From UHGV virus genome UHGV-1377012: a stretch of 39,435 bases of DNA. The stretch is one strand, 5' to 3'. Numbering within the stretch: position 1 is the stretch's first letter; every line of letters starts with the position of its first letter. Below, one piece after another: positions 39,192-39,435 of the stretch. The notes beneath the pieces are model-generated. The model was not told the origin of the DNA. It did not search any database and saw only the letters and a list, made by a program, of their open reading frames with translations. A program made the position numbers and the translations under genes. The DNA is from a virus.

Positions 39192-39233
39192 AATTCACCC
39201 GTATAAAAACCATTTTCATGACGGTATGAGAGT

Positions 39234-39248
39234 ATACCTTTAAGGTAA
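39234..39248. promoter_or_regulatory. Palindrome ATACC-TTTAA-GGTAA (one mismatch), candidate operator at the integrase promoter
   Basis: 43 bp upstream of the integrase start; overlaps the ATACCGTCACC repeat. Confidence 0.45.
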
Positions 39249-39313
39249 TACCGTCACCTGTACCGCCGAAAAATATGGTGTAGAGTGAATAGAAATGAAT
39301 ACATAAAAACAAA

Positions 39314-39337
39314 AACCCTCTGTAAAAACAGAGGGTT
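39314..39337 (-). terminator. Phage-borne hairpin AACCCTCTG-N6-CAGAGGGTT, replacement terminator for guaA
   Basis: 9-bp stem with a U-rich tract on the minus strand, 46 bp downstream of the guaA stop; the same CAGAGGGTT half is present in the host flank at 5..13. Confidence 0.65.
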
Positions 39338-39381
39338 AAATTAGTATCTGAATAGGAATGAGTTGCTATGAGTTAGCTGTT

Positions 39382-39398
39382 AATCATTCCCACTCAAT
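39382..39398. repeat. attR core: 17-bp direct repeat AATCATTCCCACTCAAT
   Basis: Identical to 38..54; contains the last codons and stop of the host gene. Confidence 0.8.
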
Positions 39399-39435
39399 GG
39401 TAGCTGGCGGCTTGCCGCTGATGTCATACACCACG
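39384..39435 (-). CDS. guaA: GMP synthase, 3' end (partial, continues beyond the window)
   Basis: Reverse-strand translation reads ...VVYDISGKPPATIEWE-stop, which matches my recollection of the enterobacterial GuaA C-terminus; stop codon at 39384..39386 lies inside the att core. Confidence 0.7.
   Translation of the reverse strand, partial: VVYDISGKPPATIEWE

What the first reader, a model, noticed from the sequence alone, without database searches (positions are those of the whole stretch)
39192..39435. Integration into the 3' end of guaA with a phage-supplied replacement terminator
The att core includes the last codons and stop of the host gene (…ATIEWE-stop). Just inside attR the phage carries a hairpin whose stem (CAGAGGGTT) is the same as the partial hairpin in the host flank at 5..13. 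The phage therefore reconstitutes both the gene end and its terminator.
Basis: partly seen in the sequence, partly recalled or inferred. Interest (0 to 1): 0.45.

Follow-up and report, generated by a model that had tools for sequence, protein, structure and literature searches.

The report
Prophage in guaA end brings terminator
An epsilon15/phiV10-type prophage sits in the last codons of the E. coli guaA gene and places its own terminator hairpin, a copy of the host's displaced one, just behind the gene; the site and hairpin were already described, so this is a correct but mostly ordinary finding.

Summary
The window is a complete Uetakevirus (epsilon15/phiV10-like) prophage. It is bounded by a 17-bp direct repeat, AATCATTCCCACTCAAT, at 38-54 and 39382-39398. 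The repeat covers the last four codons (IEWE), the stop codon and two further bases of guaA on the minus strand.

Forty-six bases after the stop, the phage arm carries a predicted intrinsic terminator at 39314-39337 (AACCCTCTGT-TTTT-ACAGAGGGTT) with a T-tract at 39304-39313. Its 10-bp stem is identical to that of the native guaA terminator, whose first arm lies at 4-15.

The core and the guaA site are published and PCR-verified for ZX5, phiV10 and epsilon15. The hairpin is already annotated as a rho-independent terminator in the epsilon15 and phiV10 GenBank records.

Four details are added here:
- The swap is reciprocal: the displaced native terminator now follows the phage lysis genes.
- In Klebsiella and inferred Salmonella lysogens the phage visibly supplies guaA's stop codon.
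- The phage hairpin shares a 32-nt exact match, at the same offset from the stop, with the inferred Salmonella guaA 3'UTR. That indicates homology, not convergence.
- Every stem variant is a G·U wobble on the guaA-sense strand.

Termination itself was not tested.

The parts
1..15 (-). First arm (AAAACCCTCTGT, positions 15->4) and three loop bases (3->1) of the displaced native guaA terminator. The rest lies outside the window.
   Evidence: The complete hairpin is present at the identical junction in lysogen E. coli E7.
16..37 (-). Host-derived spacer of the native guaA 3'UTR (TGACCCTGCACTATGAATGAAC).
   Evidence: Contiguous with guaA in empty sites.
38..54 (.). Left copy of the 17-bp att core (AATCATTCCCACTCAAT).
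   Evidence: Identical to the published attP/attB core attgagtgggaatgatt (PMC9782041).
55..164 (.). Phage P' arm between the core and the spanin gene. No terminator-like or promoter-like site was found in it.
   Evidence: Matches ZX5 attP. Scan result.
165..647 (-). Rz-like spanin gene (DUF2514), the last gene of the late/lysis block. It is transcribed towards the left att core.
   Evidence: Pfam DUF2514, E=5e-42. Annotated as such in ZX5, phiV10 and epsilon15.
37935..39191 (-). Tyrosine integrase gene. It is co-oriented with guaA and starts 192 nt after the guaA stop codon.
   Evidence: Pfam Arm-DNA-bind_3, Phage_int_M and Phage_integrase. Matches the integrase of ZX5 and phiV10.
39192..39303 (.). 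Phage P arm between the terminator and the integrase gene. The presence of integrase arm-type sites is inferred from the epsilon15 annotation.
   Evidence: The epsilon15 record annotates integrase, IHF and RNase III sites in the homologous stretch. No sigma-70-like promoter was found.
39304..39313 (-). T-tract of the phage terminator (TTTGTTTTTA on the guaA-sense strand).
39314..39337 (-). Phage-supplied terminator hairpin AACCCTCTGT-TTTT-ACAGAGGGTT.
   Evidence: -15.4 kcal/mol. Annotated as a rho-independent terminator in the epsilon15 and phiV10 records.
39338..39381 (-). Phage-derived spacer. Together with the TT of the core, it forms the 46 nt of new guaA 3'UTR before the hairpin.
   Evidence: Identical in ZX5 and phiV10 attP.
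39382..39398 (.). Right copy of the 17-bp att core.
39384..39435 (-). 3' end of guaA: 16 codons and the stop (39384-39386), plus one further base (39435) of the next codon upstream.
   Evidence: RefSeq annotation guaA under the match.

Best explanation
Shown from sequence: an epsilon15/phiV10-type prophage has integrated by tyrosine-integrase recombination at the published 17-bp core that overlaps the last four codons and the stop of guaA.

The phage attP carries an intrinsic terminator in its P arm, between the core and the integrase gene. In the circular phage this hairpin follows the late/lysis genes (holin, endolysin, Rz) and lies upstream of the integrase gene.

Integration splits attP. 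guaA now reads into 46 nt of phage sequence and then this hairpin. The native guaA terminator, which has the same 10-bp stem, ends up behind the phage Rz gene at the other junction. Each transcription unit therefore keeps an equivalent terminator.

Inferred: the hairpin stops transcription from the guaBA operon before it reaches the co-oriented integrase gene 122 nt further on. This both preserves normal guaA 3' end formation and insulates the integrase gene.

Inferred from sequence identity: the phage hairpin is homologous to enterobacterial guaA terminators, through capture or exchange. It is not an independent invention.
For: Identity and site:
- The core repeat is present twice and guaA ends within it.
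- The empty attB is present in 4558 of 5426 E. coli genomes.
- The same phage arm lies next to guaA in 569 genomes.
- The prophage is 97% identical to Uetakeviruses, and ZX5 attP has the same layout.
- The core was shown by PCR and Sanger sequencing for ZX5, and is reported for phiV10 and epsilon15 (PMC9782041).
- Integrases of the epsilon15 cluster all target the guaA 3' flank (PMC8138268).

Terminator:
- 10-bp stem, 4-nt loop and a T-tract.
- Folding z-score of -4.2, with 0 of 200 shuffles folding as well.
- It is the only terminator-like site between Rz and the integrase gene.
- Already annotated as a terminator in the epsilon15 and phiV10 records.

Strand of action:
- The five distinct stem variants seen in phage arms and host copies are all G·U wobbles on the guaA-sense strand.
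- The two variants folded alone (epsilon15 and Tyrion types) cost under 1 kcal/mol on the guaA-sense strand and about 5 kcal/mol on the opposite strand.

Reciprocal swap: the complete native terminator sits just past the left core in lysogen E. coli E7.

The phage supplies the gene end: K. pneumoniae and inferred Salmonella junctions keep the host GAG TAA or GAA TAA on the far side, while guaA acquires GAA TGA.

Homology: a 32-nt exact match with the inferred Salmonella native 3'UTR lies at the same offset from the stop.
Against: - No transcript data were available. Termination efficiency, and read-through into the integrase gene, are unknown.
- The ZX5 paper reports no growth or phenotype change on lysogeny. 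That fits the model but does not test it.
- No promoter-like site was found for the integrase gene downstream of the hairpin. The hairpin may therefore be a leaky attenuator rather than a full stop.
- The epsilon15 record places an IHF site over half of the hairpin, so a DNA-level role within attP is not excluded.
- The Salmonella origin of the L252, L253, L256 and L257 flanks is inferred. For L253 the basis is 99.8% identity of the adjoining prophage to epsilon15. For the other three it is their epsilon15/65FD-type P' arm and near-identical flank.
- Enterobacter phages keep the same hairpin, although the two Enterobacter guaA loci sampled show other hairpins. The hairpin therefore follows the phage lineage, not each host.
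Confidence: 0.8

Rival explanations
1. The hairpin is mainly an attenuator in a state-dependent integrase switch, as shown for ICEKp1. In the lysogen the integrase gene would be expressed only by residual read-through from the guaBA promoter. In the circular phage it would be expressed by read-through from the lysis genes. Replacement of the guaA terminator would be incidental.
For: - The geometry matches ICEKp1: the integrase gene is co-oriented just downstream of the host gene, the host terminator is displaced to the far end, and a stem-loop lies in the integrase 5' leader (PMC13023037).
- No sigma-70-like promoter lies between the hairpin and the integrase gene, or anywhere between Rz and the integrase gene in attP.
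- The same order (guaA, a hairpin about 48 nt after the stop, then the integrase gene about 300 nt after it) is found in unrelated guaA islands whose integrase is 53% identical.
Against: - This hairpin is a full canonical terminator: 10 bp, -15.4 kcal/mol and a 9-of-10 T tail.
- The promoter scan covers only the sigma-70 consensus. An activator-dependent promoter like lambda pI would be missed.
- Late lysis transcription comes at the wrong time for integrase needed to establish lysogeny.
Confidence: 0.3
2. The palindrome is conserved as a DNA element of attP, for example a binding or bending site for IHF, the excisionase or the integrase, and does not act as an RNA terminator.
For: - It lies inside the functional P arm.
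- The epsilon15 record annotates an IHF site overlapping its 3' half, with integrase arm sites on either side.
Against: - The five distinct stem variants are all G·U wobbles on one strand only. For the two folded alone, the opposite strand loses about 5 kcal/mol.
- A loop inversion (TTTT to AAAA) is tolerated.
- The T-tract is present on the guaA-sense strand only.
- The same hairpin serves as the native guaA terminator in hosts, where no attP function applies.
Confidence: 0.1
3. The direction of transfer is the reverse. The 'native' enterobacterial guaA terminators would be relics of earlier phage arms, left when prophages were deleted by recombination between hairpin copies. Mobile elements would then repeatedly overwrite the guaA 3'UTR.
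For: - Citrobacter sp. NCU1 (L120) has a phage-type 46-nt spacer and hairpin directly behind guaA, with no integrase or prophage. A torY-like cytochrome gene follows instead.
- Several Pseudomonas and Raoultella loci carry the arm of the other guaA island family without an integrase gene.
- The phage and the inferred Salmonella copy share 27-32 identical bases, roughly the minimum for RecA-dependent recombination from general knowledge.
Against: - E. coli and Klebsiella native 3'UTRs share their own spacer motif (CTGAATGAAAC in Klebsiella, CTATGAATGAAC in E. coli) and lack the phage spacer.
- No hybrid scar was found in 5426 E. coli genomes, nor in two metagenome scans.
- Only one scar-like case exists for this phage lineage.
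Confidence: 0.15
4. The shared stem is chance or convergent evolution of two independent terminators.
For: Terminator stems are short and G+C-rich, and A/T flanks are expected.
Against: - A 32-nt exact match, including the loop and both flanks, lies at the same offset in the inferred Salmonella 3'UTR.
- The stem pattern is absent from about 0.9 Mb of unrelated guaA loci.
- CAGAGGGTT is enriched 4 against 0.22 expected in the window.
Confidence: 0.02

Closest known systems
Uetakevirus phages epsilon15, phiV10 and vB_EcoP_ZX5 integrated at the guaA 3' end
   Same: - Identical 17-bp core.
- Same order: integrase gene, P arm, hairpin, core, P' arm, Rz.
- 97% nucleotide identity to ZX5 and phiV10 across the attP region.
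- The hairpin is annotated as a rho-independent terminator in the epsilon15 and phiV10 records.
   Different: Nothing essential differs. The window is another lysogen of this kind. The ZX5 paper never uses the word terminator (0 occurrences). I could not read the epsilon15 and phiV10 papers.
Other guaA-3'-end elements with epsilon15-cluster integrases (GIsul2, CMGI-3-like islands)
   Same: - Same target. The published GIsul2 crossover site, GAGTGGGA, lies inside this core (PMC9376610).
- The integrase is 53% identical and co-oriented about 300 nt after the guaA stop.
- They carry their own hairpin and T-run about 48 nt after the stop.
   Different: Their hairpin (AGCCCGCGTAATTGCGGGCT) is unrelated to this one. 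It does not resemble the apparently island-free guaA terminators of four Pseudomonas loci (L014, L071, L072, L086). They are islands, not phages, so no lysis operon reads into attP.
ICEKp1 state-dependent integrase promoter switching at tRNA-Asn (PMC13023037)
   Same: The element inserts at the 3' end of a host gene with its integrase gene co-oriented just downstream. The host terminator is displaced to the far end. Stem-loops in the integrase leader limit read-through from the host gene.
   Different: In ICEKp1 the displaced terminator is not replaced by an equivalent one, and co-transcription is needed for transfer. Here the element brings a full copy of the displaced terminator. Co-transcription was not tested.
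Phages that carry a substitute 3' end of their target gene (phage 21 and e14 in icd; many tRNA-gene integrators)
   Same: attP duplicates the end of the target gene, so the gene stays intact after insertion. This rests on my own knowledge of the family, not on a test here.
   Different: The coding duplication here is only 15 nt. The substituted part is mostly the 3'UTR and the terminator.

Membership tests
Uetakevirus (epsilon15/phiV10-like) prophage at the guaA attB | 17-bp core attgagtgggaatgatt duplicated at both prophage ends | tested here: met
   Matches the published core (PMC9782041).
Uetakevirus (epsilon15/phiV10-like) prophage at the guaA attB | Genome-wide similarity and synteny with described members | tested here: met
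   97% identity over 75-84% of a 24.9-kb query to PAS61, phiv142-3, ZX5 and TL-2011b. Gene order as in ZX5.
Uetakevirus (epsilon15/phiV10-like) prophage at the guaA attB | Tyrosine integrase next to attP | tested here: met
   Pfam Arm-DNA-bind_3, Phage_int_M and Phage_integrase. The gene starts 190 nt from the core.
Uetakevirus (epsilon15/phiV10-like) prophage at the guaA attB | An uninterrupted attB exists in non-lysogens | tested here: met
   4558 of 5426 E. coli genomes. Sequence shown.
Uetakevirus (epsilon15/phiV10-like) prophage at the guaA attB | Integration and excision demonstrated experimentally | not testable with these tools
   Published for ZX5 by PCR and Sanger sequencing of attB, attL and attR. 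Not shown for this strain.
Intrinsic (rho-independent) terminator | G+C-rich stem-loop immediately followed by a U-tract on the transcribed strand | tested here: met
   10 pairs (5 G-C), 4-nt loop, tail TTTGTTTTTA. The plus strand has no T-tract.
Intrinsic (rho-independent) terminator | Structure more stable than composition predicts | tested here: met
   z = -4.2 with 0 of 200 shuffles as stable. Hairpin alone -15.4 kcal/mol.
Intrinsic (rho-independent) terminator | Pairing conserved in relatives in a strand-specific way | tested here: met
   Five distinct stem variants, all G·U on the guaA-sense strand and none a mismatch. Energy asymmetry for the two variants folded alone. The sample is small: about 1 in 32 by chance.
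Intrinsic (rho-independent) terminator | Transcripts end at the U-tract in vivo or in vitro | not testable with these tools
   No transcript data available.
attP that substitutes the 3' end of its target gene | Where host and phage cores differ, the lysogen's gene end carries the phage version | tested here: met
   K. pneumoniae prophage record: guaA ends GAA TGA TTAACGG, while the far junction keeps GAG TAA TCCCC. Inferred Salmonella junctions keep GAA TAA.
State-dependent integrase promoter switching (ICEKp1 type) | Integrase gene co-oriented downstream of the host gene, with the host terminator displaced to the far end | tested here: met
State-dependent integrase promoter switching (ICEKp1 type) | Host gene and integrase gene are co-transcribed, and this drives integrase expression | not testable with these tools
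   Only indirect evidence: no sigma-70-like promoter was found upstream of the integrase gene.

The most novel reading that the evidence does not exclude
The phage P arm carries a captured copy of an enterobacterial guaA 3'UTR terminator, and this copy stays in sequence exchange with the host copy. In Salmonella-type hosts the two copies form 27-32-nt direct repeats flanking the prophage. They could then allow integrase-independent, RecA-type deletion of the prophage, leaving a phage-derived guaA 3'UTR as in Citrobacter sp. NCU1. On this reading, integrating elements repeatedly rewrite the 3'UTR of an essential-pathway gene across Enterobacteriaceae.
Probability: 0.25. Interest if true: 0.4.

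Novelty: already known. Interest (0 to 1): 0.2.

Why it matters
It shows how a temperate phage can occupy the end of a highly expressed housekeeping operon at no cost to the host. The gene keeps its stop codon and an equivalent terminator. The phage integrase gene is shielded from read-through. The phage lysis genes inherit the host's terminator.

About one in ten complete E. coli genomes carries this junction, so it is a common natural configuration. It is also a ready-made design for neutral insertion at guaA.

The integration site, the core and the terminator annotation are already in the literature and in GenBank. Only the homology between the phage and host terminators, and the reciprocal swap, appear to be undocumented details.

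Tried and rejected
- Hybrid 'scar' in E. coli (guaA, phage spacer, hairpin, then E. coli downstream sequence). The best full-length hits were 85.7% identical, which is the ordinary attB aligned with a gap. None was found.
- Two metagenome scans for Salmonella-type and Citrobacter-type hybrid scars returned 0 hits.
- Rfam search of native and phage 3'UTR loci found no family on the hairpin or the UTR, only a sub-threshold hit inside guaB. A known 3'UTR-derived small RNA is therefore not supported.
- The CAGAGGGTT copy at 32370 sits beside an unrelated hairpin (GACCGCCGGATGGCGGTC) and is a chance match.
- The epsilon15 genome paper could not be read, either by a PMC id recalled from memory or by DOI. 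I cannot say whether its authors noted the similarity to the host terminator.
- Strain SEC470, which has a 100% match to the right junction, has a different prophage interior at the expected left end, including an IS66-family element. Strain E7 was used instead.
It gave little on native enterobacterial terminators. Prophage flanks in viral contigs filled that gap.
- Spacer homology between the phage arm and the host 3'UTR: position-by-position identity with the Salmonella-type spacer is about one third by eye. No homology is claimed outside the 32-nt block.

Full report
**1. What is in the sequence**

The two ends of the window share ATCATTCCCACTCAAT at 39-54 and 39383-39398, with none expected by chance. 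Read against the sequence, the identity extends one base further. The repeat is therefore 17 bp, AATCATTCCCACTCAAT, at 38-54 and 39382-39398.

The minus strand of 39384-39434 translates to VVYDISGKPPATIEWE followed by a stop. On that strand the repeat reads ATT GAG TGG GAA TGA TT, which is the last four codons, the stop and two more bases.

Forty-six bases after the stop, the terminator scan finds AACCCTCTGT-TTTT-ACAGAGGGTT followed by TTTGTTTTTA, at 39337..39314 on the minus strand. The window holds 4 copies against 0.22 expected. The fourth copy, at 32370, is unrelated.

**2. The flanks are guaA and its own terminator**

Joining the two host flanks gives a 91-nt sequence that is uninterrupted in 4558 of 5426 complete E. 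coli genomes, annotated there as guaA.

In one such genome the stop is followed by 24 nt and then AAAACCCTCTGT-TACT-ACAGAGGGTTTT with a T-tract. This is the only terminator-like site between guaA and the convergent gene yfgI. Window positions 15->4 are the first arm of that hairpin.

In a lysogen with an identical left junction (E. coli E7), the whole native hairpin sits just past the left core, between yfgI and the phage Rz gene.

**3. The insert is a known kind of phage at its known site**

A 24.9-kb stretch of the window is 97% identical, over 75-84% of its length, to the Uetakeviruses vB_EcoP_PAS61, phiv142-3, ZX5 and TL-2011b. It also matches phiV10 in part.

The gene next to the right junction encodes a tyrosine integrase. 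The genes next to the left junction encode a DUF2514 (Rz-like) spanin, a GH19 endolysin and a holin.

In free phage ZX5 the stretch between the integrase gene and the Rz gene contains the same P arm, hairpin, core and P' arm in one piece.

The ZX5 paper reports the same core, attgagtgggaatgatt, as attP and attB at the 3' end of guaA. It verified this by PCR and Sanger sequencing, and states that the same core serves phiV10 and epsilon15 (PMC9782041). A survey of tyrosine recombinases places the epsilon15 integrase in a cluster whose members all target the guaA 3' flank (PMC8138268).

The GenBank records of epsilon15 and phiV10 already annotate this hairpin as a rho-independent terminator. The same phage arm lies next to guaA in 569 of 5426 E. 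coli genomes.

**4. Does the phage really supply the gene end?**

In E. coli the core is identical on both partners, so the window cannot show this. Other hosts can.

In a K. pneumoniae prophage record that includes host flanks, the far junction keeps ATTGAGTGGGAGTAATCCCC, the native Klebsiella end (GAG TAA). guaA itself now ends ATTGAGTGGGAATGATTAACGG, the phage version.

Four prophage flanks keep GAA TAA at the far junction: L252, L253, L256 and L257. L253's prophage is 99.8% identical to epsilon15, so its host is inferred to be Salmonella. The other three are assigned to Salmonella from their epsilon15/65FD-type P' arm and near-identical flank.

Strand exchange therefore occurs within ATTGAGTGGGA(AT). 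The stop codon and everything after it come from the phage. This fits the GAGTGGGA crossover site reported for the related island GIsul2 (PMC9376610).

**5. Is the hairpin a terminator, and on which strand?**

It has the canonical form. The 91-nt 3'UTR folds with z = -4.2, and none of 200 shuffles folds as well. The hairpin alone is worth -15.4 kcal/mol, against -17.2 for the native E. coli one.

A T-tract follows it only on the guaA-sense strand. It is the only terminator-like site between Rz and the integrase gene in attP.

Across phage arms from E. coli, Salmonella, Enterobacter and Klebsiella phages and viral contigs, and across host copies, five distinct stem variants occur. All five are G·U wobbles on the guaA-sense strand and none is a mismatch. 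The two variants folded alone (epsilon15 and Tyrion types) lose under 1 kcal/mol on that strand and about 5 kcal/mol on the other. Two contigs have the loop inverted (TTTT to AAAA) with the stem intact.

This supports an RNA-level role in the guaA, lysis and integrase direction. The sample is small, about 1 in 32 by chance. Termination itself was not measured.

**6. How it most likely works**

All late genes lie on the minus strand and end with Rz at position 165. In the circular phage the order on that strand is late genes, lysis genes, P' arm, core, hairpin, P arm, integrase gene. The hairpin is therefore the phage's own late-operon terminator and an insulator for the integrase gene.

Integration cuts between the lysis genes and the hairpin. 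guaA acquires the phage hairpin. The lysis genes acquire the native guaA hairpin. Both units keep equivalent terminators. Transcription from the guaBA operon meets a terminator 122 nt before the co-oriented integrase start.

These consequences are inferred from the anatomy.

No sigma-70-like promoter was found for the integrase gene. A leaky, attenuator-type role, as demonstrated for ICEKp1 at tRNA-Asn (PMC13023037), is therefore the main rival and may coexist with the insulator role.

**7. The shared stem is homology, not chance**

The same 10-bp stem is found in the native guaA terminator of three hosts:
- E. coli, with loop TACT.
- K. pneumoniae, with loop GTTT.
- The inferred Salmonella flanks, with loop TTTT.

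A shortened form occurs in another host (L254).

The window's phage arm and the Salmonella-type 3'UTR share a 32-nt exact match, AATTTAACCCTCTGTTTTTACAGAGGGTTTTT. In both it begins 41 nt after the stop. The pattern is absent from 120 unrelated guaA loci.

The spacers before the shared block are not recognisably similar. The direction of transfer is open. Capture of a host terminator by a phage ancestor is the simpler reading, because the E. coli and Klebsiella 3'UTRs share their own spacer motif.

The reverse is suggested by one case. Citrobacter sp. NCU1 has a phage-type spacer and hairpin behind guaA but no prophage. No such hybrid was found in E. coli genomes or in metagenomes.

**8. Comparison and verdict**

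This is a member of a described phage group at its described attachment site, carrying a terminator that is already annotated.

The additions made here are:
- The swap of terminators is reciprocal.
- Other hosts give direct evidence that the phage supplies the stop codon.
- The stem variants are strand-specific.
- The phage and host terminators are homologous.

These are modest refinements, so interest is low.

Noticed in passing
L005-L124 (genome scan): The last 15 nt of guaA (ATTGAGTGGGAATGA, preceded by CCN GCN ACN) are conserved exactly at the DNA level in more than 120 species-level genomes from many phyla, including Pseudomonas, Burkholderiales, Bacteroidales, Clostridia and Planctomycetota. 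This helps explain why the site is a broad-host-range integration target.
   Followed up: partly
L034, L040, L047, L056, L062, L075, L111 and others: A second family of guaA-3'-end elements has an integrase 53% identical to the window's, starting about 300 nt after the guaA stop. These elements carry their own conserved hairpin, AGCCCGCGTAATTGCGGGCT, with a T-run about 48 nt after the stop. The order guaA, terminator, integrase gene is thus a family-wide layout.
   Followed up: partly
L007, L031, L043, L074, L076, L084, L096, L112: These loci carry the island-type arm and hairpin directly behind guaA, but no integrase gene in the 2-7 kb of downstream sequence held. They may be relics of lost islands that now serve as the guaA 3'UTR.
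   Followed up: no
L120, positions 1-1470 (Citrobacter sp. NCU1): guaA is followed by a Uetakevirus-type 46-nt spacer and the identical hairpin. After that comes AT-rich non-phage DNA and a torY-like cytochrome gene, with no integrase or prophage. Similarity to the phage arm stops right after the T-tract, as expected if a prophage was deleted by recombination between the two hairpin copies.
   Followed up: partly
L154, L174, L221, L138, L240, L237, L248, L255, L178: In these viral contigs the left junction of a Uetakevirus prophage is followed by the arm of the other guaA island family, not by the native 3'UTR. Different elements therefore occupy the guaA site in tandem.
   Followed up: no
L225, L250: The terminator loop is inverted (AACCCTCTGT-AAAA-ACAGAGGGTT) while the flanks are unchanged. 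The whole 24-nt palindrome has flipped.
   Followed up: no
window 31620-31770: There is an array of about 24-nt direct repeats (ATCCCGTTTTTGGGATCATTCAAC and variants). It lies in the region that corresponds to the replication genes of ZX5, and looks like origin iterons or operator repeats.
   Followed up: no
L253, positions 10971-11324: An IS3-family transposase fragment lies about 180 nt beyond the inferred Salmonella guaA terminator. The region downstream of guaA is variable in that host too.
   Followed up: no
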